A stretch of DNA of 64,000 nt from the human T2T-CHM13v2.0 reference genome, Homo sapiens (GCA_009914755.4 CP068257.2:2016001-2080000); one strand, 5' to 3'; shown: positions 22,400-49,900, numbered from the stretch's first letter. The notes: generated by a model from the sequence alone, not told the origin. A program made the numbers and translations.

Positions 22400-25300
22400 A
22401 AGGAATGTTATGGAATTGAAAGCAACGGAATGGAAGGGAGTGGATTGCAATGGAATGGAATGGAATGGAGTGGAATGGAGTGGAGTGGAGAGCAGTGGAA
22501 TGGAACGGTGTCGAGTGGAGTGGGGTGGAACAGAGTGGAATGGAATGGAGTGGAGTGGAATGGAGTCGAGTGGATTCGAATCGAGTGGAATAGAATGGAA
22601 ACGAATAGAATGGAAAGGGATGCAGAAGAGAGGAATGCAGTGGAATGGGTTGGAGTGGAATGCACTGCAGTGGAGTGGATTGGAAAGGAATGGAGTGGAA
22701 TAGAATGTAGTAGAATGGAGTGGAGTGAAGTGGAAAGGAATGGAGTGAAATGGATAGGAGTGGAAAGGAGTGGAACGGTTTGGAGTAGAATGTAGTGGAA
22801 TCAAGTGGAGTGGAAAGGAATGGAACGGAATGCATTAGAATGGAATGGAATGGAGTGGAATTGAGTGGAGAGGAATGGAATGGAATAGAATGAAATGGAA
22901 TGGAACAGAGTGGAATGGAATGTAATGGAATGTAGTGGAGTAGAGTGGAATATAATGGAAAGTACGGAAGTGGAATGGAATGGAGTGGAATGGAATGGAA
23001 TCGAATGCAATTTATTGGAATAGAGTGGAATGGAATGGAATGGATTGGAATGGAATGGAGTGGAGAGGTATGGACTGGAAGGGAGAGGATTGGAGTGGAG
23101 AAAAGTGCAGTGGAATCGTGTGGAATGGAGTGAAATATAACGGAATCTATAGGAGTGGAATGGAATGGAGTGGAGTGGAATGGAATGGAGTGGAGTGGAA
23201 TGTAATGGACAGGAATGATATGGAGAGAAATGGAGTTGAGTGGAATGGAAAGTAATGGAGTGAAATAGCATGGAATGGAATCGAGTGGAGTTGAATGGAA
23301 TGGAATGGAGTGGAATTGAGAGGAGTGGAGTGGAGTGGAATGGATTGCACTGGAATGGAAGGGAATTCTCTTGAATGGAATAAAATGGAATGGAATGGAG
23401 TGGAATGGAATGGATAGGAATGAAGTGCAGTTGTGAGGAATGGAATGGAATGGAGTGCAACGGATTGGAGTGGAATGAGGTGGAATGAAATTAATTAGAG
23501 TGGAATGGATTGGAATGGAATGGAATGGACTGCAATCGAGTGGCGTGGGTGGAATGCAATGAAATGGAATGGAGCGGAGTGGAGTGGAGTGGAACGGAAT
23601 GGAATGCAGTGGATTAGAGTGGCATGGTTGGAATTGAATGAAATGGAATGGAATGGAGTGCAGTGGAATGCAATGGTGTAGAGTGGTGTGGAGGGGAGTG
23701 GAGTGGAGTGAAATGTTGTGGAGTGGAGTGGAATGGAGAAAAACGGAATGGAATGGAGTGGAATCGAATGGAGAGGAATGGAATGGAGTGGAATGGAGTG
23801 GAATGGAATGGAATGGAATGGACTGGAATAGTATGGAATGGAATGCTATTGATCGAATGGAATGGAGTGTATTTGAATGGAAGACAATGGAATGGAATGG
23901 ACTGGCGGTTGGTGGAGTGGTGTAGACTGGAGTTGAATGGAATGGAATGGAATGGAGTAGAATGGAATGGAATGCAATGGAATAAAGGGGAATGGAATGG
24001 AATGGAAAGGAGTGGAGGGGAATGGAATCAAAAGGAATGAAAAGGAATTTTGGGGAGTGGAATGGAAATGAAAGGAATAAAATGCAATGGAGTGGATTGG
24101 AGTCGAGTGAAGTGGAATGGAATGGAGTGTAATGGAGTGGTATAGAATGGAATGGAATGGAGTGGATTGGAGAGAAAGGAGTGGAGTGGAGTGGAAGGGA
24201 GTGGAGTGGAAGGGATTGGAATGGAATGCAATGCAGTGGAATAGAATGGAATCAATAGGAGTGGAATGGAATGCAGGCGAGTGGAATGGAATGGGCTGGA
24301 ATGGAACGTAGAGAAATGGATTGGGGTGGAAGGGAATGAAATGGAGTGGAATGGAGTGCAGTGGAATGGTGTGAAGTGGAATGGAATTAAACGGAATGGA
24401 ATGGAGCGGAGTGCACTGAAGAGGAATGGAGTGGAGTGCAATGGAATGGAATGGACTGAAATGGAATTGTTTGGAATGGAAAGGAATGTGGTGGAATGTA
24501 ACGGAATGGAGAGGAATGGATTGGAGTGGAATGGAATGGAGTGGAAAGGAATGGAAAGTAATGGAGTTTACTGGAATGCAATGGAATGAAATGGAATGGA
24601 ATGGAATGGAATGCAATTGAATGGAGTGGAATGCAATGGAATGGAATCGAGTGGATTGGATTGGAATGGAATGGAATAGAATGGAACAGATTGGAACGGA
24701 ATGGAGTGGAACGGAATGGATTGTAATGGAATGGAATGGAATAGAATCGAATCGAATGGAATGGAAGGGAAGGAAAAGGAATAGAATGGAATGGATTAGA
24801 ATGGAAGGGAGTGGAGTGGAATGGAATGGAATCGAGTGTAGTGGAATGGAATGGAGTGGAATGGATTGGAATGGAATGGAATGGAATGGAATAGAATGGA
24901 ATGGAATGGAGGGGATTGTAGTGGAGGGCTGTGGATAGGAATCGAGGGGAGTGGAATGGATTGGAATGGAAGGGAATGGAATGGAATCGAATGGAGTGGA
25001 GGGGATTGGACTGGAGGGCTGTGGATTGGAATGGAGTGGAATCGAATGGAATGGAATGGAGTGGAGTGGAATGAGGTAGAGTGAAATGAAATGGAAGGGA
25101 ATGGAGTGGAGTGGGGTGGAATGGAATTGAGTGTAATGGTGGGGAGAGGATTGGACAGGAGTAGAGTGCAGTGGAATGGAGAGTAGCGGAGTGGAGTGGA
25201 ATGGAATTAAATGGAATGGAATGGAGTCGAATGGAATGTAGTGGAATGGAGAGGAGTGCAATTGAATGGATTGGAATGGAATGGGGTGGAATGAAATGGA

Positions 25301-28300
25301 GTGGAATGGAATGGAGTGTATAGGACAGGAATGCAATAAAGTGGAATGGATTGGAGAGGAGTGGAACCGAATAGAATGGAGTGGAAATGAATGAAATGGA
25401 AAGGAATGGAGTGGATTGGAATGGAGTGACGTGGAATGGATTGCAATGGACTGGATTGGAATGGACTGGAGTGGAATGGAGTAGATTGAAATGAAATGTA
25501 ATGGAATGGAATGCAATGGAATGGAATAGAAAGGAGTGGAATGGAGTGTAATGGAAAGGAACGGATCAGAATTGAATGGAATGGAATGGAGTGGAATGTA
25601 GTGGAGTGGAATGGAATGGAGTGGAGTGAAGTGGATTGGAACAGAATGGAATGGCATGGAATGGAATGGAGTGGATTTCAATGGAATGTAATAGAATGGA
25701 GAGGAATGTAGTGGAGTGGAGTGCTGTGGAATGGAATGGTGTGGAGTGGAGTGGAGGGGAATGGTGTGGAAAGAATGGAGTGGAGTGGAGCGGAATGGAG
25801 TGCAGTGGAGGGGAATACAAAGGAATAGAATGGAAAAGAATTGAATGGAGTGGAATGCAGAAGAGAGGAGTGGAGTGTAATGGATTGGAGTGGAATGTAA
25901 TGCAGTGGAGTGGATTGGACTGGAATTTAGTGGAATGGAATGGAAACGAGTACAATGGAATGGAATGGAATGGAATGGAGTGGGGTGGAGTGGAATGGAA
26001 TGGAGTGGAAAGCAGTTGAGTGCAGTGGATAGGAATGGAATTTAGTGGAATGGAATGGAGTGGCATTGAATGAAATGGAATGGAATGGAATGGATTGTGG
26101 TGGAGTGGATTGGAATTGAGTGGAGTGGTATAGAATGCAATGGAATGGAGTGGAGGGCAACGGAGTGGAGTGGGGTCGAGGGGAATAGAATGGAATGGAG
26201 AGAAATTGAAAGGATTTCACTTGAATTGAGTGGATTAAAGAGGATTGGTATGGAACGGAGAGGATTGGAAAGGAGTGGAATGGATTGGAGTGCAGTGGAG
26301 TAGATTGGAATGGAGTGGAGCGTAATGGAATGGAATGGAATGGAGTGGAACGGAGTAGAGTGAAATGGAATGGAGTGGAACGGAGTGGAGTGAAATGGAA
26401 TGGAGTGGAACGGAATGGAGTGGAATTGATTGGAGTGTAGTGGAGTGGAATGGAAAGGAATGAAACGGAGTGGAGCGTAATGGAATGGAGTGGAACGGAA
26501 TGGAGTGGAATTGATTGGAGTGTAGTGGAGTGGAATGGAAAGGAATGAAATGGAGTGGAGCGTAATGGAATAGAAAGGTTTGGAGTGGAGTGGAATGGAA
26601 TGGAGTGGAATGCAATGGAGTGGGGTGGAGGGGAATGGAATTGAGTGGAGTGGAATAGAAGGGAATGGAATAGAATATCGTGGAGTGAAGTGGAGTGAGG
26701 TCGACTGGATGGTAATTGAAAGGAATGGAATGCAATGGAATGGAACGTAGTGGAATGGAAAACAGAGGAATGCAAAGGAATGGAGTGGAATGGAATGGAC
26801 TAGAGTGGAGTGAAGTTGAATGGAATGTACTCGAATGGCATGGAAAGAAATGGAATACAATGGAGTGGAGTGGAATGGATTGGAGGAGAGAAATGGAATG
26901 AAATGCAATGGAGTGGAGGGGAGTGAAGTGGAATGGAAACGAGAGGAATGTAGTGGAGTGAAGTGGATTGGAATGGAATATAGTGGAGCTGAATGGAATG
27001 GAGTGGAATGAAATGGAACGAAATGTAATTGAATGGAAAGGAGTGAAGTGGAGTGGAATGGAATTGAGTACACTGATATGGAATGGAATGGAATGGAATG
27101 GAATGGAATGGAGTGGAGTGGAGTGGAGTGGAGTGGGGTCGACTGGAATGGAATTGAATGGAATGGAATGGAATTGAATGGAATGGAATGGAATTGAATG
27201 GAATGGAATGGAATAGATTGGAATGGAAATGAATAGAATGCGATGGAGGGGAGTGCAATGAAATGGAACGAAAGCATTGGAATCGAATGGAGTGGAATAT
27301 AATAGCATGGAATAGATGGGAATGGAATGGAGTGGAATGGAGTGGAGTGGAATGGAATAGAGCGGAATGGATTGGAGGTGAGTGGAATGCAATGGAGTGG
27401 GATGGAGTGGAGTGGAATGGAATCGAATGGATTCCTGTGGAAAGGAATGAATTGGAATGCATTGGAGAGGAATGGAGAGGAATGGAGTGTAGTGCAAAGG
27501 AATGAAGAGGAATGGAATGGAGTGGAATAGAGTTGAGTGGAGTGGAATAGATTGGAGTGTAATGGAGTTTAGTGGTGTGGAATGGAATGCCGTGGAATGG
27601 AGTTGAATGGAGTGGAATGGAATGGAATGGAATGGAATGGAACGGATTTGAATGGAATGGAGTGGAATGGAATTGAGTGGAATTGAGTGGAGTGGAGAAA
27701 ACTGCAGTGGAGAGGGGTCGAGTGGATGGGAATGGAATGGAATGGAATTGAGTGTAAAGGAATGGAGTGGAGAGGAATGGAATGGAATGGAGTGGTGTGG
27801 AATGGAGTGGAAAGGAATGGAATGGAATGCAATGTAGAGGAGTGGTGTGGTGTGGAATGGAATGGAGTGGACTGGGATGGAATGAAATGGAATTGAATTT
27901 AATGGAATGGAATGTAATGGAGAGGATGGGAGTTTAGTGGAATGGAATAGATTGGAATGGAGTGGAGTAGAATGTAACGGAATGGAATTGAGTGGAGTGG
28001 AATAGAATGGAATGGATTGGAATTTAATGGACTGGACAAGAGTGGAATGGAGTTGAGTAGAGTGAAGTGGAATTGAATGGAATGGAATGGAGCGGAATGC
28101 TGTGGAGTGGACTTGAGTGGAATGGAATACAGTGGAGTGAAGTTGAATGGAAAGGAATGGAATGGAATGGAATGGAGTGGAGTGGAATAGAATGGAGGAG
28201 AATGGAATGGAATGGAATGGTGTGGAGTGTAATTGAATGGAATGGAATGCAGTGGAATTGAAAGGAAAGGAATGGAATGCAATGAAATGGAGTGGAGTGG

Positions 28301-31300
28301 AGTGGAGTGGAATGGAATGGAGAGCAGTGAAGTGGAATTTAATAGATGTAATGGAATGGAGTGGAATGGAATGGAGTGGTGTGAAATGAAAAGGAATGGA
28401 ATGGAATGGAATGGATTGGAAAAGAATGGAATGGAGGGGAATGGAATGGAATGGAAGGGACTGGAATGGCTTCGAGTGGAGTGTAGTGGAATGGAGTGGA
28501 ATAGAATGGAAAGGAGTGGAATGGAATCGAATGAGTGGAACGGAATGGAATGCAATGGAATGGAATGGAATGGAATGTAGTGGAGCAGAGTGGAATGGAA
28601 TGGAATGGAATATAGAGTAGTGGAATGGAATGGAATGGAATGCAATGGAATGGAATGGAGTGGAATAGAATGGAATGGAATGCAATGGAATGGAATGGAG
28701 TGGAGAGGTATGGAGTGGAGGGGAGTGGATTGGAGTGGAGAGGAATGGAGTGGAATCTTGTTCAATGGAGTGGAATATAATGGAATCAAGTGGAGTGGAA
28801 TGGATTGGAGTGGAGTGGAATGGAGTGGAGTGGAGAGGAATGGAATGGAGTGGAATGCAGTGGAGTGGAGTGGAATGGAGGGCAGTGGAATGGAATGGAT
28901 AGGAGTGGAGTGGAGAGGACTGGACTTGTGTGGAATGGAATGGAATGGAATGGAGTGGGATTGAGAGGAGTGGAGTGGAGTAGAATGGATTGCACTGGAA
29001 TGGAATGGAATGGAATTCAGTTGAATGGAATAGATTGGAATGGAACGGAGTTCAATGGAATGGAGAGTAATGAAGTGGAGTGGAGAGGAGTGGAATGGAA
29101 TGGAGTGGAATGGAGTGGAGTGGAATGGAATAAAGTGGAATGGAGTGGATTGGAACGGAATGGAATGGAATGGATTCAAGTGGTGTGGGTGGAATGGAAT
29201 GAAATGGAATGGAGTGGACAGAAGTGGAGTGGAATGCATTGGAATGGAGTGGCTTCGAATGGTGTCGGTGGAATGGAAGGAAATGAAATGGAGTGAAGTG
29301 GAATGGAGTGGAATGCAATTGTTTGGAGTGGTGTGGAGATAAGTAGAGTGGAGTGAAATGTTGTGGAGTGGAGTGGAATGGAGTAAAATGGAATGGAATG
29401 AAGTGGAGTGGAATGGAATGGAGTGGAATGTAACGGAGTGGATTGGAGAGGAATGGATTGGAGTGGAATCGACTGGAGTGGAATGGAAAGGATTGGAGTG
29501 GACAGGAATGGAATGAAGTGGATTGGAGTGGAGTGGAACAGAATGGAACGGAGTGCAGTGGAGTAGAATGGAATGGAGTGGAACGGAATGGAGTGGAAGA
29601 GAATGGAGTGGGGCAGAGTGGAGTGGACTCGAATGGAATGGAATGGAGTGGAATGGATTGGAACGAAATGGGAAGGAATGGATTGGAGTGGAATAGAATG
29701 GAGTGGGATGGAATGAAGTGGAATGGAATGGAGAGGAGTGGAGAGGAATAGAATGGAGTGAAATACAGTAGAGTGGAATGGAATGGAATGTAGTGGAGAG
29801 GAATGGAATTGAATGGAATGGAATTCAGAGGAATGAAGTGGAGTGGAGTGGAATGGAATGGAATGGAGTAGAATGGAATGGAATGAAATGGAATGGATTG
29901 GAGTGCAGGGGAGCAGAATGCAATGGAAAGGAGTGAAATGGAATGGAATGGAATCTAATGGAAAGGAATGGAATGGAAAGGACTGGAGTTGAAAGGAATT
30001 GAGAGGAATGAAATGGACTAGAATGTCATGGAATGGAATGGAATGTAGTGGATTTCAATGGAATGTAATAGAATAGAGTGGAATGTAGTTGTGTGGAGTG
30101 CAGTGGAATGGAAAGTTGTGGATTGGGGTGGAGGGGAATGGTGTGGAAAGAATGGAGTGCAGTGGAGTGGAATGGAGGGTAGTGGAGTGGAATGGAAAGG
30201 AATAGAATCGAAACGAATTGAATGGAATGGAATGCAGAAGACAGGAGTGGAGTGGAATTGATTGGAGTGGAATGTAGCGGAGTGGAGTGGATTGGAATGG
30301 AATGCAAAGGAATGGAATGGAAACGAGTACAATGGAATGGAAAGGAACGGAATGAAGTGGGGTGGAGTGGAATGGAATGGAGTGGAATGCAGTTGAGTAA
30401 AGTGGATTGGAATGGAATGTAGTGGAATGGAATGGAATGGAGTAGCATAGAATGAAATGGAATGGAGTGGGGTGGAGTGGAGTGGAATTGACTGGAGTGG
30501 TATAGAATGCAATGGAATGGAGAGGAGGGCAGTGGAGTGGAGTGGGGTCAAGTGGAATAGAATGGAATGGAGACGAATTGAATGGATTGACTTGAATGGA
30601 GTGGAATAAAGTCCAGTGGAATGGAAAGGAGAGGAATGGGAAGGAGTGGAATGGATTGGAGAGGAGTGGAGTACATTGGAATGGAGTGGAATGGAGTGAA
30701 GTGCAATGGAATGGAATGGAATGAGTGGAGTGGAATGGAATGGAGTGGAACGGAGTGGAGGGGAATGGAATGGAGTGGAAAGGAATGGAGTGGAATGGAT
30801 TGGAGTGGAGTGGAGTCGAATGGAATGGAGTGAAATGGAGTGGAGCGTAATTGAATGGAAAGGTGTGGAGTTGAGTGGAATGGAAAGGACTGGAATGCAA
30901 TGGAGTGGAATGGATTGAAGTGGAATGGAATGGAGTGGAGTGGAGAGGAATGGAATGGAGTGGAATGCAGTGGAGTGGAGTGGAATGGAGTGGAGTGGAA
31001 TGGAATGGAGTGATATGGAATGGAGTGGAATGGAATGGCATCGAATGGAATGAAATAGAAGGGAATGGAATGGAATGGAACGGAATGGAGTGGAGCGGAA
31101 TGGAATGGAATGGAATGCAATGGAATGGAGTGGAGTGGAATGGAATGGAATGCAAAGGAATGGACTGGAACGGAGTGGAGTGGAGCGGAATGTAATGGAG
31201 ACGATTGGGGTAGAAAGGAACGGAATGGAATGGAGTGGAGTGGAATGGAGTTGAGTGGATTGCAATGGAAAGGAATGGAATGGAGTGATATGGAATGGTG

Positions 31301-34300
31301 AGGAAGGGAGTGGATTGGAAAGGAATGGAGAGCAACGAATTGGAGTGGAGTGGATTGGAATGGAATGTAGAGGAACTGAACGGAAAGGAGTGGATTGAAA
31401 TGGAATGGAATGGAACAGAATGGAAAGGAACATAAAGAAATGGAATGGAATGCAATGGAGTGGGGTGGAGGTTAATGGAATAGAGTGGAGAGGAATAGAA
31501 TGGAATGGAAAAGAATGTCACAGAGTAGAGTGGAGTGAGGACGACTGGATGGTAATTGAAAGGAATGGAATGGAACGGAGTTGAATGGAATGGAGAGGAA
31601 TGCAATGGAATGGAGTGGAATGGAATGGAGTGGAGTGGAGTGGAGTTGAATAGAATGTACTGGAATGGCATGGAATGGAATGGAATGGAATGGAGTGGAG
31701 TGGAATGGAGTGGAGGGGAGACAAACGGAATGGAATGGAATGGAGGGGAGGGGAGTGAAGTGGAATGTAAACCAGTGGGATGTAGTGGAGTGAAGTGGAT
31801 TGGAATGGAATATAGTGGAATTGAATGGAATGGAGTGGAATGCAATTTACCGAAATGGAAAGGAACGGAATGGAGTAAAGTTGAGTGGAATGGAATTGAG
31901 TGGAGTGGTATGGAATGGAATGGAATGGAATGGAATGGAGTGTAGTGGAGTGAAGTGGGTTCGACTGGAATGGAATTGAACGGAATGGAATGGAATTTAA
32001 TGGAATGGAATGGAATGGAATGGAATGGAAATGAATACAATGCGATGGGGGGGAGTGGAATGGAATGGAAAGGAAAGGATTGGAATGGAATGAAGTGCAA
32101 TGTAATGGCATGAAATAGAATGGAATGGAATGGAGTGGAATGGAGTGGAGTAGAATGGAATGGAGCGGAATGGATTGAAGTGGAGTGGAATGCAATGGAG
32201 TGGAATGGAGTGGAGAGAAACGGAACGGAATGGATTCCTGTGGAAAGAATGAATTGGAATGCATTGGAGTGGATTGGAGAGGAATGGAGTGGAGGGCAAT
32301 GGAAACGAGAGGAATGGAACAGAGTGGAATGGAGTTGAGTGGAGTGGGATAGATTGGAGTGTAATGGAGTTTAGTGGAGAGGAATGGAATAGAGTGGAAT
32401 GGAGTTGGATAGATTGGAATGGAATGGAATGCAATCGAATGGATTGGAATGGAATGGAATGGAATGGAAATGAGTGGAGTGGAGTGAAATGGAATGCAGT
32501 TCAATGGAGGGGAGAGAAATGGAAAGGAATGGAATGGAATGAGGCGGTGTGAAATGAAATGCAGTGGAATTGAATAGAGTGGAATGGAATGGATTGGAGG
32601 GGATTGGAATGGAATGGAGTTGAATGGAATATAGTGTAATGGAATGCAGTGGAATAGAGTGGAATGTAATATAACGGTGTGTAGTGGAATGGAATGCAAT
32701 GGAATGAAATGGAATGAAATAAAAAGGAATGGAACTAAGTGTAGTGGAGTGGAATGTAATTGAGTGGAGTGGAATGGAATAAATTGGAATGGAATGCATT
32801 GGAGTGGAGTGGAGGTGAGTGGAAGGGAATGGATCGGAATGGAACGGACGGGAATGGATTGGAATGGAATGGAGGGGAATGGAATGGCATGGAATGGATT
32901 TGAATGTAATGGAGGGGAAAGAAATTGAGTGGAATTGAGTGGTGTGGAGTGAAGTGGAGTGTAGAGGAGTCGAGTGGATGGGACTGGAATGGAATGGAGT
33001 GGAAAGGTGTGGAGTGGAAAGGAATGGAATGGAATGGAGTCGTGTGGAATTGAGTGGAAAGGAATGGCATGGAATGCAATGGAGAGGAGTGGTGCAGTGT
33101 TGAATGGAATGGAGGGGACAGGAATGGAATGAAATGGAATTGAATTCAATGGAATGGAATGGAATGGAGAGGCTGGGAGTTTAGTGGAATGGAATGGAGT
33201 TGAATGGAATGGAATGGAATTGAGTGGAGTGGAATGGAATGGAATAGATTGGAATTTAATGGATTGGACGGGAGTGGAATGGATTTGAGTGGAGTGAAGT
33301 GGAATTGACTGGAATGGAATGGAGCGGAAAGCAGTGGAGTGGAGTGGAATGGAGTGGAGTGAAGTTGAATGAAAGAATGGAATGGAATGGAGTGGAGTGG
33401 AATGGAATGGAACGGAATGGTGTGGAGTGTAATGGAATAGAATGGAATGCAGTGGAATTGAAAGGAATGGAATGGAATGGAATGGAATGGAATGGAATGG
33501 AATGGAATGCAGTGAAATGAAGTGGAGTGGAGTGGAGTGGAATGGAATGGAGAGCAGTGAAGTGGAATTTAATAGAAAGCAATGGAATGGAATGGAATGG
33601 AATGGAATGGAAGGGAGTGGAATGGAGTGGAATGGAATGGAATGGTGTGAAATGAAAAGGAATGGAATGGAATAGAATGGATTGGGAAAGAATGGAATGG
33701 AGTGCACTGGCATGGAATGGAGTGGAATGGAGTGGAGTGGAGAGGAGTGGAACGGAGTGGAATAGACTGGAATGGAGTGGAATGGAATGGAATGAGTGGA
33801 ACGGAATGGAATGCAATGGAATGGAATGGAATGGAATGTAGTGGAGCAGAGGGGAATGGAACGGAATGTAGAGGATGGGAATGGAATGGAATGTAATGCA
33901 ATGGATTGGAATGGAGTTGAATGGAATTGAATGAAATGGAATGGAGTGGAGAGGTATGGACTGGAGGGGAGTAGATTGAAGTGGAGAGGAATGGAGTGGA
34001 ATTGTGTGGAATGGAGTGGAATATAATGGAATCGATTGGAGTGGTATGGAAAGGGGTGGAGTGGAATGGAATGGAGTGGAGTGGAATGTAATGGACTGGA
34101 ATAAAATGGAGAGAAATGGAGTGGAGCAGAATGGAATAGAATGGAGTGAAATGGCATGGAGTGGAATAGAGTGGAGTTGAATGGAATTGAATGGAATTGA
34201 GTGGAGTTGAGAGGAGTGGAGTGGAGTGGAATGGACTGCACTGGAATGAAATGGCATGGAATTCAGTTGAATGGAATAGAATGGAATGGAATGGAGAGGA

Positions 34301-35300
34301 ATGGAAGGGAGAGTAATGAAGTGGATTGGAGAGGAGTGGAATGGAATGGAGTGGAATGGATTGGAGTGCAATGTAGTGGAATAGAATAGGGTGGAAAAGA
34401 GTGGATTGGAATGGAATGGTGTGGATTCGAGTGGTATGGGTGGAATGGAATGAAATGGAATGTAGTGGAGTGGATTGGAGTGGAGTGGAATGGAATGGAA
34501 TGGAGTGGATTCTAATGGAGTGGGTGGAATGGAATGAAATGAAATGGTGTGGAGTGGAGTGGAATGCAATTGTTTGGAGTGGTGTGGAGAGGAGTAGAGT
34601 GGAGTTAACTTTTGTGGAGTGGAGTGGAATGGAGTAAAATGGAATGGAGGGGAGTGGAATGGAATGGAGTGGAATAGAACGGAGTGTAATGGAGAGGAGA
34701 GGAATGGAATGGAGTGGAAAGGAGTGGAATGGAATGAAATGGACAGTAATAGAATGAAATGGAAAGCTATGTGATGAAATGGAATGGAGTGTATTTGAAT
34801 GGAAGGGAATGAATTGGAATGGAGTGGCGGAGAGTGGAGTAGTGTAGAGGGGAGTCGAAAGGAATGGAATGGAATGGAATGGAATGGAATGGAGTGTAAT
34901 GGATTGAAGTGGAATGGAATTTAATGGAAAGGAGTGGAGGAGAATGGAATGGAATGGAATGGAAAGGAATGGTGGGGAGTGGAATGGAATTGAAGGGAAT
35001 AAAATGTAATGGAGCGGAGTGGAATTGAGTGAAGTGGAATGGAATGGAGTGTAAATGAGTGGAATAGAATGGAATGGAATGGAGTGGAGTGGAGAGAAAG
35101 GAGTAGAGTGCAGTGGAATTGAGTGGAGTAGAATGGAGTCGAATGGAGTGGAATGGAGTGAAATTGAATGGAATCGATTGTAGTGGAATGGAGTGGAGTA
35201 GAATGGAAGGGAGGGGAGTGGAATGAAGTGGACTGGAATGGAACGGAATGTAAAGAAATGGACTGGAATAGAACGAAATGTAAAGAAATGAAGTGAAGTG
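22400..35300 (+). repeat. Multi-kb higher-order repeat (HOR) copies of the pentameric satellite (units ~4.4-5.6 kb; partial copy ~22.4-23.8 kb, fuller copies ~25.6-30.0 kb and ~30.0-35.3 kb)
   Basis: Shared rare anchor motifs recur in the same order. ATGCAGAAGAGAGGA(G/A)TG block at ~22,620 / 25,850 / 30,240. (A/T)CGACTGGATGGTAATTGAAAGG at 26,700 / 31,545. GGATTCCTGTGGAAAG at 27,435 / 32,232. ATTGAGAGGAGTGGAGTGGAGT.GAATGGA(T/C)TGCACTGG at 23,320 / 28,975 / 34,215. GTGAAATGTTGTGGAGTGG at 23,705 / 29,355 (degenerate in the third copy). Homologous peptides appear in ORFs 28233..28580 vs 33442..33675 and 25636..26019 vs 30058..30261. Confidence 0.7.
26300..26580 (+). repeat. Nested short tandem duplications (30-bp x2 then 85-bp x2)
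   Basis: GGAGTGGAACGGAGT(A/G)GAGTGAAATGGAATGG occurs at 26,345 and 26,375. TGGAACGGAATGGAGTGGAATTGATTGGAGTGTAGTGGAGTGGAATGGAAAGGAATGAAA(C/T)GGAGTGGAGCGTAATGG occurs at 26,406 and 26,491. Confidence 0.8.
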
Positions 35301-35899
35301 GAATGGATAGGAGGGGAGTGGAGTGGAATGGTATGCAGTGGAAAGCAGTTGAGGGGAGTGGATTGGGAAGGAATATAGTGGAAGGGAATGGAATGGAGTG
35401 GAATGGAATGGAATGGAGTGGAAAGGAATGGAATGGAAGGGACTGGAATGGAATGAAATCGAATGGAATGGAATGGAGAGGTTTGGAGTGGAACGGAATT
35501 GAGTGGAGTGGAATAGAATGGAATGGAATGGAATGGAATGGAATGGAATCGAGCAGAGTGGAGTGGGGTCGACTGGAATGGAATGGAACGGAGTGGAGTG
35601 GAATGGAATTGAATTTAATGGAAAGGAATGGAATGGAATGGAATGGAATGGCATGGAATTTAATGCAGTGGAATGGAATGGAATGCAGTGGAGTGGATTG
35701 GAATGGAATGGAGTGGAATGGAATAGAGTGCATTGGAATGGAATGGAATTGACTGGAATTGAGTGGAGGGGAATGGAGTGCAATGGAGTGAGGTGGAAAG
35801 GAATAGAATTCAATGCAATGGAATGGAATGGTATGGAACGGAATGGAAAGGAACAGGATGGAATGGAAGGGAGTGGTGTGGAGTGGAATGGAATTGAGT

Positions 35900-40900: not shown

Positions 40901-43900
40901 ATGGAATGGAATGGAATGGAATGGAATGGCGTGGAATGCAACGGAGTTGAATGGAGTGGAGTGGAGTGGAGTGGGGTGGAGTGGATTGGAATGGAACGAA
41001 ACGGAATGGAATGGATTGGAATGGAAACGATTGGAGTGGAATGGAATGGAATGGAATGGAGTGGAGTGGAATGGATTAGAATGGAATGGATTGGAATGGA
41101 GAGGAGGGCTGTGGAGTGGAATAGAATAAATTGGAGTGGAATGGAATGGAATGGAATCGAGTGGAGAAGAATGGAGTGGAGTGGAATGCAATGGAATGGA
41201 GTGGACTGTAATGGATTGGAATGGAATGGAATGGAAGGGAGTTGAGGGTTGTGGAGTGGAATAGAATTTATTGGAATTGAATGGAACGGAACGGAATGGA
41301 AAGGATTGGAATGGAATGGAATAGAAGGGAGAGGAGTGGAAAGGAATGGTATGGAGTGAAATGGAATGGAAGGGAATGGAATGGAACATATTGGAATGGA
41401 AACGAATGGAATGGAATGGAATAGAATGGAATGGAAATGAATGGAATGGAATGAAATGCAATAGAATGGAGTGTTAAAGAAGTGATTGAAGTGGAGGGGA
41501 ACGGAGTGGAATGGAGTGGAATCAAGTGGAATGGAAAAGAATGGAACGGAGTTTAGTGGAATATTATGGAGTGGAATGGAATCGAGTGGAAAGGAAAGTA
41601 GTGGAGTCGAGTGGAACGGAATGGAGTTAAATGGAATAGAGTGCTATGGAATGGAATGGTGTGTAGTGGAATGAAATGGAGTGGCATGGAATGGAGTGCA
41701 GTGGAATGGAGTGGAGTGCAATGGAATGGAATGCAATGGAATGGAATCGAATGGAATGGAATGGGGTGGAGTGAAATTGAATGGAGAGGAATGGAAGGAG
41801 TGGAATGGAATGTAGTGTAAAGGTATGTAATGTAACAGTGGAGTGGAATGAAATGGAATGGAATGGAATGGAGTGTTGTGCAATGGAATGGAATGGAGTG
41901 GAATGGAATAGAATGGAATGGAATGGAATGGAATGGAAAGGAATGGAGAGGAATGGAATGGAGAGGAATGGAATGCAATGGAGTGGAATGGAATGGAATC
42001 GAGTGGAGTGGAATGGAATGGAGTGGAGTGGAATAGAGTGGAATGGAATGGAATGGAGTGCAGGGGATTGAAGTGGAGTACTTTGGAGTCGAATGGAGTC
42101 AAAGGTATTAAATGGAATGGAGTGGAGTGGAAGGGGGTGGAGTGGAATGGAATGGAATGGAATGGGGTGCAGTGGAATGGAATGGAATTGAGTGGAGTAG
42201 AGTGGAGAGGATTGGAGATGAGTGGAGTGGAGTGGAGTGGAAACGAGTGGAATTGAGTACATTTGAATAGAATTAAATGGAATGTAATGGAGTGGAATGG
42301 AATGGAGTGGAATGGATTGTAGTGGACTAGAATTTAATAGAGTGGAATGGATTGGAGAGAAGTGGAACAGAATGGAATGGAAAGGAATGGAATGGTGTGG
42401 AGTGCAATGGAATGGAGTGGAATGTAGTTGAGTTGAGTGGATTGGAATGGAATATAGTGGAATTGAATGGTATGGAGTGGCGTATAATGAAAAGGAATAT
42501 AATGGAATGGAGTGGGGTTTAGTGGATTGAAATTGAGTGAAGTGGTATAGAATGGAATGAAATGGAGTGGAATGCAGAGGCTTCGATTGGAATCGAATGG
42601 AAAAGAGAGGAATTGAATGGATTTGACTGGAATGGAGTGGAAAGAAGTGCAGTGGAATAGAATGAAGAGGAATGGAAAGGAGTGGAATGGATTGGGGTGG
42701 AGTGGAGTGGAATGGAGTGGAGAGGAACAGAATGGAATGGAATGGAATGGAGGGTTGTGGAATGGAATGCAGTGGAACGGAGTGGAGTGGAATGGAATGG
42801 AGTGGACTGGAATTGAGAGGAATGGATTGGAGTGGAGAGGAGTGAAATGGAATGGAGTGGAGCAGAAAGGAATGGAAAGTTATGGAATCGAGTGGAATGG
42901 AATGGAGTTGAATGGAATGGAGTGGAATGGAGTGGAGTAGAATGAAATGGAAAGTTATGGAATGCAGTGGAATGGAATGGATTTGAGTGGAATGGAATGG
43001 AATGGAATGGAGTGGAGTGGATTGGAATGGAATGGAGAGGAATGGAGTGGAGTGGAGTGGAAAGGAGTGGTTTGGAATGGAGTGGAATGGAACGGAATGG
43101 AATGGAAGGCAATGGAAGGGATTGGTATGGAATGGAATGAAATGGAGCAAAGTTGAATGGAATAGAGTGGAATGGAATAGAATGGAATGGAATGGAATGG
43201 ACTGGAATGGAGTGGAGTGCAGTGGAGTGGAATGGAATGGAGTCGAGTTGATTGGAATGGAGTGGAATGGAATGGAGTGGAATGTAGTTGAGTGGAGTGG
43301 AGTGGAATGGAATGGAGTGCAACAGAGTAGAATGGAATGGAACGGAAAGTTGGGCAGTGGAGTGGAATGAAATGGAGACGAATGGAATAGAGTGGAATGG
43401 AATGGAGTGGAGTGGAGTGGAATGGAATGGAGGGCAATGGAGTGGAGTGGAGTGGAATTGAGTGGTATGGAATGGAGTTGAATGCAATGGAATAGAATGG
43501 AATGGAATGGAATGGTGTGGAGTGGAATGGAATGGAATGGAATGGAAAGGAACGGAATGGAATGTGGTGGAATGCAGTGGAATGGAATATAATTTGAAAA
43601 GAATGGAATGGAAAGGAATGGAATATAATCGAATGGAGTGGAGAGGAATGGAAAAGAATAAACTGGAATGGAGTGGAGTGGAGTGGAATAGAATGGAGTG
43701 GAGTGGAGTGAAATTGAATGGAATGGAATGGAATGGAATGGAATGGAGTGAAGTGGAATGGAGTCGACTGCAGTGGAATGGAATGAAATGGAGAGGAAGG
43801 GAGTGTAGTGGAATGGAATGGAGTGGAATATAGTGGACTGGGGTGGATAGGAATGGAATGTAGACGAACGGAATGGAGAGGAGTGGAATGGAACGGATTG

Positions 43901-46900
43901 GAATGTTATGCAATGGAATGGAATGGAAAGAAATTGAATACAATGGAATGGAATGGGGGGAGGGGAATGGAATTGAGTGGAGTGGAATACAATGGAATAG
44001 AATGGAATTTAGTGGAGTGGAGTGGCGTCCAGTGGTTGGTAATTGAAAGTAAGGGAATGGAATGGAATGGAGTCGAATGCAGTGGAGTGGAACACAGTGG
44101 AATGGAGTGGAGTGGAATGGAGAAGAGTGGAGTCGAGTGGATTGGAATGGAGTGGAGTGAGGTGGAATGCAATGTAGTGGAATCACATGGAATAGAATCG
44201 AATGGAATGGAGTGGAATGGAATGAAGTGGAGAGGCGTGAAATGGAATGGAATGGAATGGAGGGTAGGGGAGTGGAGTAGAATGGAAAGGAGTTGAATGT
44301 ACTGGATTGTAGTGGATTGTAATGGATTGTACTGGAGTTGAAAGGAATGGAATGGAATGGAATGGAATGAAAAGGAGTGGGAAGGAATGGAGTGAAGTGG
44401 ATTTGAATGGAATTGAGTGGAGTGGAATGGTATGGAATGAAATGGGATGGAGTGAAGTAGAGTGGGGTTGAGTGAAATGGAATTGAATGGAATGTTATGG
44501 AATTTAATGGAATTGGTTGGAATGGAATGGAATGGAATGGAATAGAATGCTATGGAGTGGAGTGGAGTTGAGTGGAGCAGAGAGGAATGGACCGTAAAAG
44601 AATGGCATGGAATGGAGTCGGATGAAATTGAATGGAATTGAAAGGAATGGCATGGAATGGAGAGGAAGGCAATGGAGTGGAATGGAGTGGATTGGAATGG
44701 AAAGGAGCGGAATGGATTGGAGCGGAGTGGAATGCAATGGAGTGAAATGGAGAGTAGTGGAATGGAATGCAATGGATTCTTGAGGAATGGAATGAATTGG
44801 AGTAGAATGGAGTGGAAAAGAGTGGAGTGCAATGGTAATCATTGGAATAGAATGGATTGTAAAGGAGCTGAGAGAAGTGACATAGATTAGAGTGGAACGG
44901 AGTTATTTGGAGTGGAATGGAATGGACTGTAATGGAATTGAATGGAGTGGAATGGAATGGAATGGAGTGAAGTGGAGTGGGATCGAGTGGAATGGAATGG
45001 AATGGAGTGGAATGGAATGGAATGGATATGAGGGGAGTGGAATGAAATGAAATGGAATGGAATAGAGTGGATTGGAAAGGAATGGAATGGAATGGAGTGA
45101 TGTGGAATGAAATGGAGTGGATGGAGTGGAGTTTAGCGGATTGGAATGGAATGGAGTGGAATGGAATAGAGTGGAATGGAATGGAATGGTGTGTAGTGGA
45201 ATGTAACTGGATGGAAAGGAATGGAATGAAATGGAAAGGAATGGAACGGAGTGGAGAGGATTAGAGTGGAATGGAATTAAGTGGAGTGGAAAAAAATGCA
45301 ATGGAATGAAAAGCAATGGAGTGGAGTGGAATGGAGTGGAAAGGAATGGACCAGAATGGAACGGAATGGAATGGAGAGGAATGTAATGTAATGGAATGGA
45401 GTGGAATGGAATTGATTGGAATGGAATGTAGTGGAGTGGAGTGGAGTGGGGTCGAGTGGATGGGAATAGAATGGAATGGAATTGATTGGAATTGAAACGA
45501 GGGGAGTGGAGTGGATAGAATGGAATGGAGTGGAGTTGAATGGATTGGAATGGAATGCAATGGAATGGAGAGAAGGGGTGTGGAGTGGAATAGAATGGAT
45601 TGGAGTGGAATGGAATGGAATGAAATGGAATGGAACGGAATCGAGAGCAAAGGAGTGGAGTGGAATGGATTGGAATGGAATCGAATGGAAGGGAGATGAG
45701 GGGTGTGGAGTGGAAAAGAGTTTATTGGAGTTGAATGGAATAGAGTGGAGCAGATTGGAATGGAATGGAAGGGAGAGGAGGGCAATAGAATGAAATGGAA
45801 TGGAATTTAATGGAATGGAGTGGAACAGAATGCAATGGAGTGGAATGTAATGAAATGGAAAGGCATGGGATGAAGTGGAACGCAATGGAATGGAATGGAT
45901 TGGTAATGAGGAGAGAGGAGTGGAATGGAATGGAGTGGAAAGCAGTGGAGGGGATTGGAATGGAATGGAGTGGAGTGGGATTGAATGGAGTGTAATGGAA
46001 TGGAGTGGAATGGAGTGGAGTGGAATGGAATGGAACGGAGTGTGGTGGAATGGAATGGAATGAAGTAGAGAGAAATGGAGTAGAGTGGAGAGGAATACAG
46101 CGGAATGAAGAGGAGTAGAATAGAATAGAATAGAATGGAATGGTGTGTAGTGGAATGAAATGGAGTGGCATGGAATGGAGTGGAGTGGAATTGAGTGGAG
46201 TGCAATGGATTGGAATGGAATGGAATGCAATGGAATGGAATCGAATGTAATGGGATGGGGTAGAGTGGAATTGAATGGATGTTAATGGATGGAGTGGAAT
46301 GGAATGTAGTGTAAAGGAATGGAATGTACTCAAGTAGAATGAAATTTAATAGAAAGGAAAGAAGGGGAGTGCAATGTAATGGAAAGGAGTGGAATGGAAT
46401 GGAATGGAATGGAATGGAATGTTATGGAATGGAATGGAATGGAATCGAGTGGACTGGAATGGAATGGAGTGGAGTGGAAGGGAATGGAATGGAATTGAAT
46501 GGATTGCAGTGGATTGAAGTGGAGTTCTTTGGAATGGAATGGAGTGGAATGGAATTAAATGGAATGGAGTGGAATGGAAGGGGGTGGAGTGGAATGGAAT
46601 GGAACAGAATGGAGTGGAGTGGAATGGAATGGAATTGAGTGGAGTACAGTGGAGATGATTGAATATGAGTGGAGTGGAGTGGAATGGAGTGGATTGGAAT
46701 AGAAAAAACGGAATGGAATGGATTGAAATGGAACGAAGTGAAATGGAATGGAGTGGAATGGACTGTGGTAGACTGGAATGGAATAGAGTGGAATGGATTG
46801 GAGAGAAGTGGAACAGAATGGAATGGTGTGGAAGGGAATGCAATGGAACAGAGTGGACTAGAAAGGATTTGAGTGGAATGGAGTGAAATGGAATTTAATG

Positions 46901-49900
46901 GAATACAACGGAATGGCATAGAATGGAGTGGGATGGAGAGGAATGGAATGGAATGGAATGGAATCTAATGGAACAGAAAGGAATGGAGGGAAGTGGGAAG
47001 GAATGGAATTTAATGGAATGGAGTGGAATGGAGAGGATTGTTATGGAGTGGCAAGGAATGAAATCGAATGGAGTGGAATGGAATGGAATGGAGTGGAGTG
47101 GAGTGGAGTGGAATGGAGTGGAGAGGAGTGTAGTGGAATGGAATGGAAGGAATGGAATTTAATGGAATGGAATGGCAGGGAATGGAATGTAGCGGAGGGG
47201 AGAGGAGAGGAGTGGAAAGTAATGGAGTGGAATGGAATGGAACAGAATGGAGTGGAATGGAGAGAAGAGGAGTGGAATTGTATGCAATGGAGTGGAATGG
47301 AAGGGAATGGAATGGTACGGAAAGGAATGAAGTGGAATGGAATGGAATTGAAAGGAACGGAATGGAATAGCGTGGAATGGAATGGTGTGGAATGGAATGG
47401 TATGGATTCGAGTGGAATGGAGCAGAATGGAATGGAAGCGAATGTACTGGAGTGGAGTGGAGTGGAATGGAATAGAAAAGAATGGAATTGGGTGGATTGC
47501 AATGGAATTGACTGGAGTGGAAGACAATGGAATGGAATGGAATGGTTGTAGTAGAGTGGAGTGTGGTCGGGTGGAATAAAATGGAATGGATTGGAGTGAA
47601 ATGGAACGGAATTCCGTGGAATACAATGAAATGGAATGGAATGGAATGGAAAGGAAAGGAATGGAACGGAACGGGCCAGAACAGAATGGAATGGAACGAA
47701 ATGGAATGGAATGGAATGGAATAGAGTGGAAAGGAATGGAATGAAATGGGGTGGAATATAGAGGAGTGGAGTGGAATGGAATGGAATGCAGTGGAGTGGA
47801 AAGGAATGGAGCAGAATTTATTGGAATGGAATGCAATGCAATGGAAACGAATGGAATGGAATGGGGTGGAATGGGGTAGTGCGGAAAGGAATGGAGCAGA
47901 ATTTAATGGAATGGAATGCAATGGAATGGAAACGAATGGAATGGAATGGGGTGGAATAGAGTGGTGTGGAATTTAATGGAGTGAAGTTGAATGGAATGGA
48001 ATGGAAAGGATTGGAATGCAGTGGAGTGGAATGGATTGGAATAGAATGGAATAGAGTGGAATGGAATCTAGTGTAATGGAATGGAAGGGAATGAAATGAA
48101 ATGCAGTCGAATGTAATAGAATAGAACGGAAGTGAATGGAGTGGAGTGAAAAGTATTGAATTTTTTCAAGTGGAATGGAATGGAATGGAATGTAAAGGAA
48201 TGGAATGCATTGGAAATGAATGGAAAGGAATGGAGTGGAAGTGTAGTATACTGGAGTGGAGTGGAGTGAAATGGAAGAGAATAGAATGGAAAGGAACGGA
48301 ATGGAACAGAATGGATTGGAATGGAATGGAATGGAATGGAATAGACTGTATTGGAATGTAATGTAATGTTATGTAATGGAAAGGAATGGAATAGAGTGGA
48401 ACGGAATGGAATTGAATGGAGTGGAATGTAGAGGAGTGGAGTGTAATGGAATGGAATGTTGTGGAAGGGATTTTAGAGGAATGGAGTGGAGTGGAATGGA
48501 ATGGAGTGGAATAGAGTGCAGTGGAATGGAATGGAGTGGAATGGAATGGAATGGAGTGGAATGGAATGGAAAGAATTGGAGTGGACTTCTGTGGAATAGA
48601 ATGGAATGGAGAGGAGGGGAACGGAGTGGAGTAGACTAGAATGAAATCAAATGGAATGGAATGGAATGGAAAGGAAAGAAATGGAATCGAGTGGAGTGGA
48701 GAAGAAGAGAATGGAGTGGAGTAAAATGGATTGGAATGGAAAGGAACAGAATGGAATGGAGTGAAGTGGAGTGGAGAGAACTGGAGAGGAATGGAGTGGA
48801 ATTTAATGGAATGGAAGGGAATGGAATGGAATGGAGTGCAGTGGAATGGAATGGAATGGAATGGAATGGAGTGGATTGGAATGGAATGAAGTGTAATGGA
48901 AAGGAGTGGAATGGGATGGAATGGACTGGAGAGGAGTGGAATGGAATTGAATGCAATAAAATGGAATGGAGTGAAGTGGAGTGAAGTGGAATATAATGTA
49001 ATGGAATGCAATGGAGTGCAATGGAGTGGAGTGGATTGGAACGGAATAGAGTGGAATAGAGTGGAGTGGATGGAATGGAATGGAATGGAATGGAAAGGAA
49101 TGGAATGGAATGGAGTGGAATGGATTGGAATGGAATGGAATGGAGTGGAATGGAATGGAATGGAATGGAGTGGATTGAAGTGGAATGGAAAGGAAAGGAA
49201 TGGCATGGAATGGAATGGAATGGAGTGGAGTGGAGAGGTGGGGATAGGGGTGGAATGCAATGAAATGCAATCCAATGGAATGGAATGCAATGGAATGGAA
49301 TGCAATGGAATGGAAGGGAATGGAGTGGAATGAAGGAGAGTGGAATGGAATGGAGTGGAATGGAATGGAATGGATTGGAATGATGTGGAGTGGGGTGGAT
49401 GGAATGGAATGGAATGGACTGGACTGGACTGGATGGAATAAAATGTAAAGGCACGTATCAAATGGATGTAATGGAATCGAATGGAAGTGAGTGCACTGGA
49501 GTGGAGTGGAGTGTAAAGAAATGGAATGGAGTGGAATTCAAGGGAATGGAAAGGGAAGGAATGGAATGGAAAGGAAAGGAATGGAGTGGAGTGGTTTGGA
49601 ATGGAATGGAGTAGAGTGGAATGGAATGCAATGGAATGGAATGGAATGAATCGGAATGGAATGGAAACGAATTCCATAATGTGGAAGGAATGGAATGGAG
49701 TGGAATGGAATCTTGTGGAATGCAACAGAAGGCAATGGAATGGAAAGGAGAGGAGTGTAGTGTAGTGGAATGGAATGAACAGGTATGGAATGTAACCTAA
49801 AGTAGTTGAATGGAATGGAGTAGAATGGAATGGGGTGGAATGAAATGGAGTGTTATGGAATGCAATTGAGTGGAATGGGGTCGAATGGAGTGGAGTGTAA

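What the first reader, a model, noticed from the sequence alone, without database searches (positions are those of the whole stretch)
22400..47000. Multi-kb higher-order repeat (~4.4-5.6 kb) superimposed on the diverged pentamer array, with at least five partly homologous copies
Rare non-pentameric words recur in conserved order. (A/T)CGACTGGATGGTAATTGAAAGG / TGGTAATTGAAAGTAA is at ~26,705; 31,548; 39,555; 44,035. ATGCAGAAGAGAGGA is at ~22,620; 25,850; 30,240. GGATTCCTGTGGAAAG is at 27,435 and 32,232. ATTGAGAGGAGTGGAGTGGAGT…TGCACTGG is at 23,320; 28,975; 34,215. Hundreds of bp of collinear similarity between the copies are visible, and the ORF track produces homologous peptides at matching offsets. 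Spacing between equivalent anchors varies (3.2, 4.4, 4.8, 5.2, 5.6, 4.5 kb), so copies differ by large indels, and the earliest copy (~22.4-23.8 kb) lacks ~2.4 kb present in the next two. This is HOR structure typical of HSat3 arrays but with a long, irregular period.
Basis: seen in the sequence. Interest (0 to 1): 0.55.

Follow-up and report, generated by a model that had tools for sequence, protein, structure and literature searches.

The report
Decayed multi-kb repeat in pentamer satellite
Inside a 64-kb stretch of (GGAAT)n satellite DNA of the human-satellite-3 type, a block of about 4-5 kb was copied side by side several times long ago and has since decayed to about 82-89% identity, which is an ordinary feature of this kind of satellite.

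Summary
Spacings are 3235, 4377, 4840, 5246, 5645 and 4480 bp. Collinear alignments of 1-1.9 kb score 420-1376 bits; unit-shuffled controls reach at most 226.

There are five same-orientation partial copies:
- c0 22211-24270
- c1 25452-29488
- c2 29839-35192
- c3 38342-42380
- c4 42380-46826

Identity is 84-89% for c1/c2, 82-87% for c3/c4 and 82-86% for c0 against c1/c2. Between the two groups it is 80-87%, and only over the roughly 2.5-kb middle part. Unrelated parts of the same array align at 77.3 ± 1.1%.

The copies are mosaics. c0 lacks the middle. c1 has lost two ~0.4-kb pieces that c2, c3 and c4 keep. c3 and c4 have a tail with no detectable match in c1/c2. A younger 2-kb GGAATTCC-punctuated block (35930-37990) separates c2 from c3.

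This is a decayed "nested tandem repeat" of an HSat3-type array, most likely made by unequal exchange and then eroded by point mutation and pentamer slippage. It is not a homogenised higher-order repeat; DYZ1 units are over 98% identical. Species and chromosome could not be determined. The phenomenon is known and interest is low.

The parts
22211..24270 (+). Copy c0: a short copy made of the head module (about 22211-22820) joined directly to the last ~1.45 kb of the tail module (22837-24270). It lacks about 2.5 kb relative to c1 and about 3.3 kb relative to c2.
   Evidence: BLAST chains: 22427-22707 to 25658-25942 (83.6%); 22846-23827 to 28487-29477 (81.6%); 22987-24270 to 33878-35192 (83.5%). 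Tile map. Anchors at 22620 and 23315.
24271..25451 (+). A 1.18-kb spacer between c0 and c1 with no detectable homologue in the other copies.
   Evidence: Semi-global alignments to the sequence after c2 and after c4 fall within the null range, z = 1.6 and -1.6. Identity is 76.6-79.9%.
25452..29488 (+). Copy c1: head, middle and tail modules. It lacks two pieces of about 0.45 and 0.42 kb from the middle, and the last ~0.45 kb of the tail.
   Evidence: Three collinear HSPs to c2 at 83.7-85.3%. Global alignment gives 89.2% over 3887 columns, with a 420-bp gap and a ~470-bp gap cluster. The pieces missing from c1 match c3/c4 collinearly (clearly above the null for the first piece, only marginally for the second), so they are read as deletions in c1.
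29489..29838 (+). A 350-bp junction or spacer between c1 and c2.
   Evidence: It aligns to the tail end of c2 (34779-35194) at only 81%, and to c0 at 76%. No matched null was run for this comparison.
29839..35192 (+). Copy c2: the most complete copy (5.35 kb), used as the reference. Modules are H 29839-30440, M 30440-32840 and T 32840-35192.
   Evidence: Anchors at 30232, 31550, 32232 and 34206.
35930..37990 (+). An interrupting, more homogeneous block of nearly pure (GGAAT)n, punctuated every 25-50 bp by the palindrome GGAATTCC. It lies between c2 and c3, where the head of c3 would be expected.
   Evidence: Sequence read. TRF period 35, 80% matches. GGAAT makes up 66.5% of units and GGAGT 0.2%, against about 18% GGAGT in the copies. 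The left flank of c3 (37990-38342) shows no homology to the c3/c4 junction, z = -0.4.
38342..42380 (+). Copy c3: the middle module (38.4-40.8 kb) plus a tail (40.9-42.38 kb) shared only with c4.
   Evidence: Chain to c4, 80.4-88.3%. Global alignment 86.9% over 3702 columns. Collinear matches to c2 31189-32390 exceed the null. Anchor at 39557.
42380..46826 (+). Copy c4: the middle module including its start (42380-42882, absent from c3) plus the tail shared with c3.
   Evidence: 42380-42882 against c2 30345-30865: 87.2%, z = 10.6. Against c1 25968-26495: 84.1%, z = 9.1. Chain to c3. Anchor at 44037. Nothing homologous follows 46826, z = 0.5-1.9.
26710..26722 (+). Anchor word TGGTAATTGAAAG. It marks the same point in c1, c2 (31550), c3 (39557) and c4 (44037).
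   Evidence: Exactly four occurrences in 64 kb at up to 1 mismatch. In the four-way alignment, c1/c2 and c3/c4 each carry group-specific changes, including a GTAA(T/G) pentamer present only in c3/c4.

Best explanation
The region is a decayed nested tandem repeat inside an HSat3-type (GGAAT)n satellite array.

**Proposed history.**
1. A block of at least 4-5 kb of already diverged pentamer array was duplicated side by side in the same orientation. The likely mechanism is out-of-register (unequal) exchange between sister chromatids or homologues, or replication template switching. Both are easy in an array where every position is locally similar to every other.
2. Further rounds produced at least five adjacent units.
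3. The units were not kept homogeneous afterwards. They accumulated point substitutions, many of them A/G changes that toggle GGAAT and GGAGT. They also gained and lost whole pentamers, so small indels are mostly 5, 10 or 15 bp. A few deletions of 0.4-3.3 kb occurred.
4. A younger short-period array (35930-37990) expanded at the c2/c3 junction.

**What is shown and what is inferred.** The copies, their order, orientation, identities and indels are shown. The exchange mechanism and the order of events are inferred.

**Function.** The unit is not expected to have a function of its own beyond being satellite heterochromatin. The long ORFs are a by-product of base composition.
For: - The whole window is a period-5 array: 12,800 copies at 71% matches. 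C content is 3.3%. There are no inverted matches.
- The classic HSat3 decamer CAACCCGAGT occurs 13 times, at 51.5-54.8 kb.
- Long collinear same-strand alignments score 4-6 times higher than any shuffled control.
- Identity is 84-89% for c1/c2, 82-87% for c3/c4 and 80-83% between groups in the middle module. The null for unrelated array is 77.3 ± 1.1%, with a maximum of 79.9%.
- The tile-by-tile homology map shows collinear modules.
- The shared rare word and the group-specific pentamer indel support the tree ((c1,c2),(c3,c4)) in the middle module.
- Of the small gaps between c1 and c2, 20 of 26 are multiples of 5.
- K-mer interval peaks at 4.3-5.2 kb appear only inside 22-47 kb. Other parts of the window show other periods, such as 1.4-1.5 kb in 1-22 kb and a ~1.5 kb repeat at 12.7-16.7 kb.
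- This fits published statements that HSat2/3 have multi-kb nested tandem repeats whose period varies locally (bioRxiv 10.1101/2021.07.12.452052).
- It also fits reports that some HSat3 arrays are only about 86-92% self-identical (bioRxiv 10.64898/2026.01.27.702063).
Against: - Each group has only two or three copies, so 'periodicity' rests on few units.
- Spacers of 0.35 and 1.2 kb between copies have no detectable homologue.
- The tails of c3/c4 show no detectable homology to the tails of c1/c2. A single ancestral unit covering everything is therefore not shown.
- Relationships are mosaic. The head of c4 is as close to c2 (87%) as c1 is. This needs conversion, exchange or uneven decay.
- Identity values shift by about 5 points with gap scoring.
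- Species, chromosome and HSat3 subfamily were not established.
- No related sequence from elsewhere could be retrieved.
Confidence: 0.8

Rival explanations
1. It is a true, currently homogenising higher-order repeat: a regular unit of 4.4-5.6 kb kept similar by ongoing exchange, as in DYZ1.
For: Same-orientation adjacent copies with conserved anchor order. Interval peaks at 4.4 and 5.2 kb.
Against: Identity is 82-89%, only 5-12 points above the unrelated-array background, whereas DYZ1 units are over 98% identical. Unit length varies from 2.1 to 5.4 kb. The tails are not shared between the groups. No further copies are detectable before 22.2 kb or after 46.8 kb.
Confidence: 0.06
2. The copies did not arise from one tandem series. 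They are a patchwork of separate duplications or gene-conversion tracts between nearby parts of the array, and they happen to be collinear.
For: Similarity is mosaic. The head of c4 is 87% identical to c2, while the middle of c3/c4 is 80-83% identical to c1/c2. The tails are unrelated, and there are spacers without homologues.
Against: All five copies lie in one orientation and in the same module order, and they are directly adjacent. Tandem duplication followed by deletions explains this with fewer events.
Confidence: 0.1
3. The similarity is a chance effect of low sequence complexity in a pentamer array.
For: Any two parts of the array align at about 77%. Purer stretches such as 30.6-31.2 kb match many places at about 80%. 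Some weaker cross-group HSPs (120-215 bits) lie within the shuffle range.
Against: The main HSPs score 420-1376 bits against a maximum of 226 in shuffles. Rare words recur only at equivalent positions. The z-scores are 9-21 for c1/c2 and for the c4 head against c1/c2, and 3.8-7.9 for the cross-group middle module.
Confidence: 0.02
4. It is an assembly artefact: a falsely duplicated or collapsed satellite region.
For: Satellite arrays are error-prone in assemblies (general knowledge).
Against: False duplications give near-identical copies. These differ at 11-18% of sites and by many pentamer-multiple indels.
Confidence: 0.02

Closest known systems
Nested tandem repeats (NTRs) of HSat2/HSat3 arrays, as defined by Altemose et al. 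(bioRxiv 10.1101/2021.07.12.452052)
   Same: A multi-kb unit built from diverged (CATTC/GGAAT)n pentamers, repeated head-to-tail in one orientation. The period differs between neighbouring parts of one array: 4.4-5.6 kb here, about 1.5 kb at 12.7-16.7 kb, and other periods elsewhere.
   Different: There are only 2-3 copies per group. Identity is 82-89% rather than near-identity. Lengths are irregular, with deletions of 0.4-3.3 kb. NTRprism with its default minimum of 10 k-mer occurrences would probably not report it; this is an inference from the method description.
DYZ1 (HSat3A6), the ~3.6-kb NTR of human Yq12
   Same: An HSat3-type pentamer base with a kb-scale unit.
   Different: DYZ1 units are over 98% identical and number in the thousands. 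The period differs. The published HSat3A6 24-mer has no match at up to 1 mismatch in the window.
Divergent alpha-satellite HORs (dHORs) flanking active centromeric arrays
   Same: [quoted passage not shown] Here likewise a once-regular unit survives only as eroded copies.
   Different: A different satellite family and monomer size (171 bp against 5 bp). A layered position relative to a live array was not testable in a 64-kb window.
Diverged HSat3 arrays on acrocentric short arms, for example the three-copy duplication within HSat3 on HG002 chr21 (bioRxiv 10.64898/2026.01.27.702063)
   Same: An HSat3 array with low internal identity (about 86-90% ANI, below 92%) that contains a few-copy local duplication. 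The GGAGT (ACTCC) pentamer variant, 17-25% of units here, is reported to be enriched on chromosomes 13, 14, 15, 21 and 22 (PMC11305138).
   Different: No test of identity with that locus was possible. The chromosome assignment of this window is unknown.

Membership tests
HSat3 (classical human satellite III) | Array built on the pentamer GGAAT/ATTCC | tested here: met
   TRF finds period 5 with 12,800 copies over 35-63995. GGAAT makes up 32-37% and GGAGT 17-19% of units in the copies.
HSat3 (classical human satellite III) | Interspersed decamer CAACCCGA(A/G)T | tested here: inconclusive
   There are 15 CAACCCGA sites, all at 51.5-54.8 kb and none inside 22.4-47 kb. The window contains canonical HSat3, but the finding itself lies in a decamer-free, GGAGT-rich variant.
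HSat3 (classical human satellite III) | Not HSat2: lacks the CATTCGATTC-based HSat2 units and HSat2-specific 24-mers | tested here: met
   The three published HSat2 example 24-mers have no match at up to 2 mismatches. CATCGAATGGAATCGAATGG occurs 0 times. AATCGAATGG occurs only 25 times in 64 kb.
HSat3 (classical human satellite III) | Assignment to one of the 11 subfamilies by subfamily-specific 24-mers | tested here: inconclusive
   Only one example 24-mer per subfamily was available. There is one exact HSat3A2 hit; A1, B1 and B5 hit only at 1 mismatch. The full list is held only for HSat2A1.
HSat3 (classical human satellite III) | Human or hominoid pericentromeric or acrocentric location | not testable with these tools
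   No human or primate genome is searchable here. Scans of bacterial-genome and metagenome contigs and exact-ORF look-ups found nothing.
Nested tandem repeat (NTR) of HSat2/3 | A multi-kb unit of diverged pentamers, repeated adjacently in the same orientation | tested here: met
   Five adjacent + strand copies of 2.1-5.4 kb. No inverted matches.
Nested tandem repeat (NTR) of HSat2/3 | Unit-to-unit similarity above the similarity of unrelated parts of the array | tested here: met
   82-89% against 77.3 ± 1.1%. HSP scores are 4-6 times the shuffle maximum.
Nested tandem repeat (NTR) of HSat2/3 | One dominant period across the array | tested here: not met
   Anchor spacings are 3.2, 4.4, 4.8, 5.2, 5.6 and 4.5 kb. 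Only the 5200 and 4400 bins exceed shuffles. Other parts of the window have other periods.
Higher-order repeat in the strict (alpha-satellite) sense | A fixed number of monomers per unit and near-identity between units (typically over 95%) | tested here: not met
   Units differ by 0.4-3.3 kb, and identity is 82-89%.
DYZ1 / HSat3A6 | A ~3.56-kb unit and A6-specific 24-mers | tested here: not met
   There is no 3.5-3.6 kb peak. The A6 example 24-mer has 0 matches at up to 1 mismatch.

The most novel reading that the evidence does not exclude
The eroded 4-5 kb units could be an old 'layer' of an HSat3 array whose live, homogeneous descendant or relative lies elsewhere in the same array or on another chromosome. 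With the nested younger blocks at 35.9-38.0 kb and 50.3-55.2 kb, the window would then record layered expansion in HSat3, comparable to the layered model for alpha satellite. It would give datable steps for how classical satellites turn over.
Probability: 0.12. Interest if true: 0.35.

Novelty: new member of a known kind. Interest (0 to 1): 0.14.

Why it matters
It matters little on its own. It documents at base-pair level that an HSat3-type array can carry old, unhomogenised kb-scale duplications with different periods side by side, with younger short-period expansions nested among them. This agrees with the published view that nested tandem repeats in HSat2/3 arise and expand very locally.

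The practical value is modest:
- The rare anchor words and copy-specific differences make this stretch mappable.
- The deletion pattern (c0, c1) gives markers for tracing exchange events, if the locus is compared between haplotypes or apes.

Tried and rejected
- **Ungapped diagonal identity map.** It recovered the main diagonals (offsets 4377, 5246-5261, 10886-10922, 4530). Frame-shifting indels and an ill-defined background made its z-scores unusable, so it was replaced by BLAST plus shuffles and by semi-global tile alignments.
- **Origin of the large c1/c2 length differences.** I tested whether the extra sequence in c2 is a local duplication of its neighbours. Identities were at background (76-79%), so this was rejected. 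One search then showed that c3/c4 carry these pieces, so they are deletions in c1.
- **Subfamily assignment with Altemose 2014 24-mers.** Only one 24-mer per subfamily was available. The stored Dataset S2 is cut off within HSat2A1, so it could not classify the window.
- **Finding the same or related sequence elsewhere.**
  - Two exact-ORF look-ups found nothing.
  - Two patterns scanned in each of genome contigs and metagenome contigs found nothing.
  - One protein search returned a single hit, P0001. It lies in a GC-rich, non-satellite contig and matches only through an (ACTCC)n-encoded repeat, so it is unrelated.
- **Rfam scan of the window.** No family reached its gathering score.
- **Pfam hits of the long ORFs.** Pentapeptide_4 and Extensin_1 matched. 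I take these as artefacts of translating a 5-bp repeat, not as evidence of genes.
- **A sixth copy after 46.8 kb, or a homologue of the c0-c1 spacer.** Neither was found; z ranged from -1.6 to 1.9.


Full report
**What the window is.** All 64 kb is one uninterrupted satellite array in a single orientation.
- Tandem Repeats Finder reports period 5 (AATGG), 12,800 copies at 71% matches, over 35-63995.
- The base counts are G 26,254, A 22,210, T 13,446 and C 2,090.
- A minus-strand self-BLAST returned nothing, so there are no inversions.
- In most of the window, about one third of units are GGAAT and 17-25% are GGAGT.
- Two blocks differ:
  - 35930-37990 is nearly pure GGAAT punctuated by GGAATTCC.
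  - 50.3-55.2 kb carries the classic satellite-III decamer CAACCCGAGT 13 times. The same decamer occurs in primers used for 9q12 satellite III transcripts (PMC2171959).
- HSat2 signatures are absent.
- I therefore treat the array as HSat3-type. Species, chromosome and subfamily could not be tested.

**Checking the observation.**
- The best anchor, TGGTAATTGAAAG, occurs exactly four times in 64 kb: 26710, 31550, 39557 and 44037.
- The 22-mer ATTGAGAGGAGTGGAGTGGAGT is informative only at 0-1 mismatch, because it resembles common GGAGT runs.
- Anchor spacings are 3235, 4377, 4840, 5246, 5645 and 4480 bp. The spacing is 8007 bp across the 35.9-38.0 kb block.

*Alignments against a null.* Self-BLAST gives long collinear HSPs:

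| Segment 1 | Segment 2 | Identity | Bits |
|---|---|---|---|
| 25452-26639 | 29839-31009 | 84.3% | 856 |
| 26599-27681 | 31439-32478 | 85.3% | 912 |
| 27608-29488 | 32860-34734 | 83.7% | 1376 |
| 22987-24270 | 33878-35192 | 83.5% | 910 |
| 22846-23827 | 28487-29477 | 81.6% | 525 |

- Six further collinear pieces link 38342-42380 to 42882-46826 at 80-88% identity, 216-507 bits.
- For the null, I cut the sequence into its GGA-initiated units and shuffled them, singly or in groups of four, within 4-kb blocks. Six such controls gave maxima of 161-226 bits.
- Semi-global alignment of a 1.2-kb segment to 40 unrelated parts of the array gave 77.3 ± 1.1% identity, with a maximum of 79.9%.

**Anatomy.** With c2 (29839-35192) as reference, a tile-by-tile map (300-bp tiles, each compared with eight unrelated control intervals) and targeted alignments define three modules:
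- H: 29.84-30.44 kb
- M: 30.44-32.84 kb
- T: 32.84-35.19 kb

| Copy | Coordinates | Content |
|---|---|---|
| c1 | 25452-29488 | H + M + T; lacks two pieces of ~0.45 and ~0.42 kb in M and the last ~0.45 kb of T |
| c2 | 29839-35192 | H + M + T, the most complete copy |
| c3 | 38342-42380 | M (start missing) plus a tail shared only with c4 |
| c4 | 42380-46826 | M (including its start) plus the tail shared with c3 |

- The two pieces missing from c1 have collinear counterparts in c3 and c4 (clear for the first piece, marginal for the second). They are read as deletions in c1, not insertions in c2.
- The start of c4 (42380-42882) is 87% identical to c2 (z = 10.6) and 84% identical to c1 (z = 9.1). 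The sequence left of c3 shows no such homology, z = -0.4. The head of c3 is therefore missing where the GGAATTCC block now lies.
- The T module of c1/c2 has no detectable match in c3/c4.
- Spacers at 24271-25451 and 29489-29838 have no clear homologue.
- Nothing homologous follows 46826.

**Degree of similarity.**
- BLAST chains give 83.9% for c1/c2 and 82.3% for c3/c4.
- Global alignments with cheap gap extension give 89.2% and 86.9%.
- In the middle module, c1/c2 is 86.9% and c3/c4 is 87.4%. The four cross-group pairs are 80-83%, with scores 3.8-7.9 sd above the null where tested.
- A four-way alignment around the anchor shows group-specific characters, including a pentamer present only in c3/c4. 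This supports ((c1,c2),(c3,c4)) for that module.
- The head of c4 is as close to c2 as c1 is, so relationships are mosaic.
- Small gaps are mostly multiples of five: 20 of 26 for c1/c2.
- A/G changes are the commonest substitution type.

**Interpretation.** This is a decayed multi-kb tandem duplication series within an HSat3-type array.
- The likely origin is unequal exchange or template switching between out-of-register parts of the array.
- Decay followed by substitution, pentamer slippage and a few kb-scale deletions.
- A younger short-period expansion then arose at one junction.
- The steps from 'copies exist' to 'unequal exchange made them' are inference from the tandem, same-orientation arrangement and from established models of satellite evolution.
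- The long ORFs, up to 985 aa on the minus strand, and their mutual similarity follow from the near-absence of stop codons on the C-rich strand and from DNA homology. Their Pfam 'pentapeptide' and 'extensin' hits are periodicity artefacts.
- No Rfam family matches the window.

**Comparison with what is known.**
[quoted passage not shown] - The window fits this. Besides the 4.4-5.6 kb series it holds a ~1.5-kb series at 12.7-16.7 kb, plus ~1.0, ~1.5 and ~3.0 kb pairs elsewhere.
- It differs from well-known NTRs such as DYZ1, which is ~3.6 kb with units over 98% identical (bioRxiv 10.1101/2022.12.01.518724). Here there are few copies, they are irregular, and they are only 82-89% identical.
- Diverged HSat3 arrays of below 92% identity that hold few-copy duplications are described for acrocentric short arms (bioRxiv 10.64898/2026.01.27.702063).
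- The GGAGT/ACTCC variant is reported as enriched on chromosomes 13, 14, 15, 21 and 22 (PMC11305138). This is a lead to the origin of the window, not a test.
- The strict HOR criteria, a fixed monomer number and near-identity, were tested and are not met.

**Verdict.**
A multi-kb superimposed repeat with five partly homologous copies exists. It is a relic nested tandem repeat split into groups of three and two, not a homogenised HOR 'typical of HSat3'.
- The kind of feature is known, and this is at most a new example of it. Interest is low.

Noticed in passing
window 35930-37990: A 2-kb block of almost pure (GGAAT)n, punctuated every 25-50 bp by the 8-bp palindrome GGAATTCC (which contains an EcoRI site). 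The local units read GGAACGGAACGGAATTCCATTAAATGGAATGGAAT on the left and GGAATTCCATGGAAAGGAATGGAAT on the right. It holds 61 of the 62 GGAATTCC sites counted in the window, and GGAGT is almost absent. It looks like a younger local expansion between copies c2 and c3.
   Followed up: partly
window 50300-55200: A block of canonical HSat3: (GGAAT)n with the decamer CAACCCGAGT (13 exact copies at 51.5-54.8 kb) embedded in the GGAGT-rich variant. It contains a young local duplication, 52443-52745 against 52656-52958, at 97% identity with a 213-bp offset.
   Followed up: partly
window 12680-16660: A separate series of about three units with a ~1.5-kb period. 12681-14564 matches 14175-16083 at 79.8%; 14531-15086 matches 16090-16646 at 86%; 12680-13625 matches 15657-16658 at 80%. 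All score well above the shuffle maximum.
   Followed up: partly
window 19006-20478; 55256-57425; 58374-62007; 62433-63420: Further isolated old tandem pairs with other periods: ~0.99 kb at 84%, ~1.5 kb at 85.7%, ~3.0 kb at 79.6% and ~0.62 kb at 83%. The last two (234 and 238 bits) only just exceed the shuffle maximum of 226 bits.
   Followed up: no
window 2601-3299: TRF reports a 74-bp period with 9.6 copies at 70% matches, superimposed on the pentamer array.
   Followed up: no
window 21975-47921, minus strand: Stop-free ORFs of up to 985 aa on the C-rich strand translate to (HSIPF)n-like repeats. They hit Pfam Pentapeptide_4 above its cut-off and Extensin_1 at its cut-off. These are artefacts of a 5-bp DNA repeat read as a 5-residue protein repeat, and could seed spurious protein annotations.
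   Followed up: yes
L001 11983-12638 (ENA ERZ25074135 ctg9760, 558 kb): An unrelated GC-rich contig carries a gene with an (ACTCC)n-encoded extensin-like repeat. It aligns at 83% to the GGAGT-rich stretch at window 58.4-59.0 kb, on the opposite strand. This is a convergent simple repeat, not homology.
   Followed up: yes
window 1-64000: There is no strand switch, no transposable-element-like interruption and no non-satellite sequence anywhere in the 64 kb. C content is 3.3%.
   Followed up: partly
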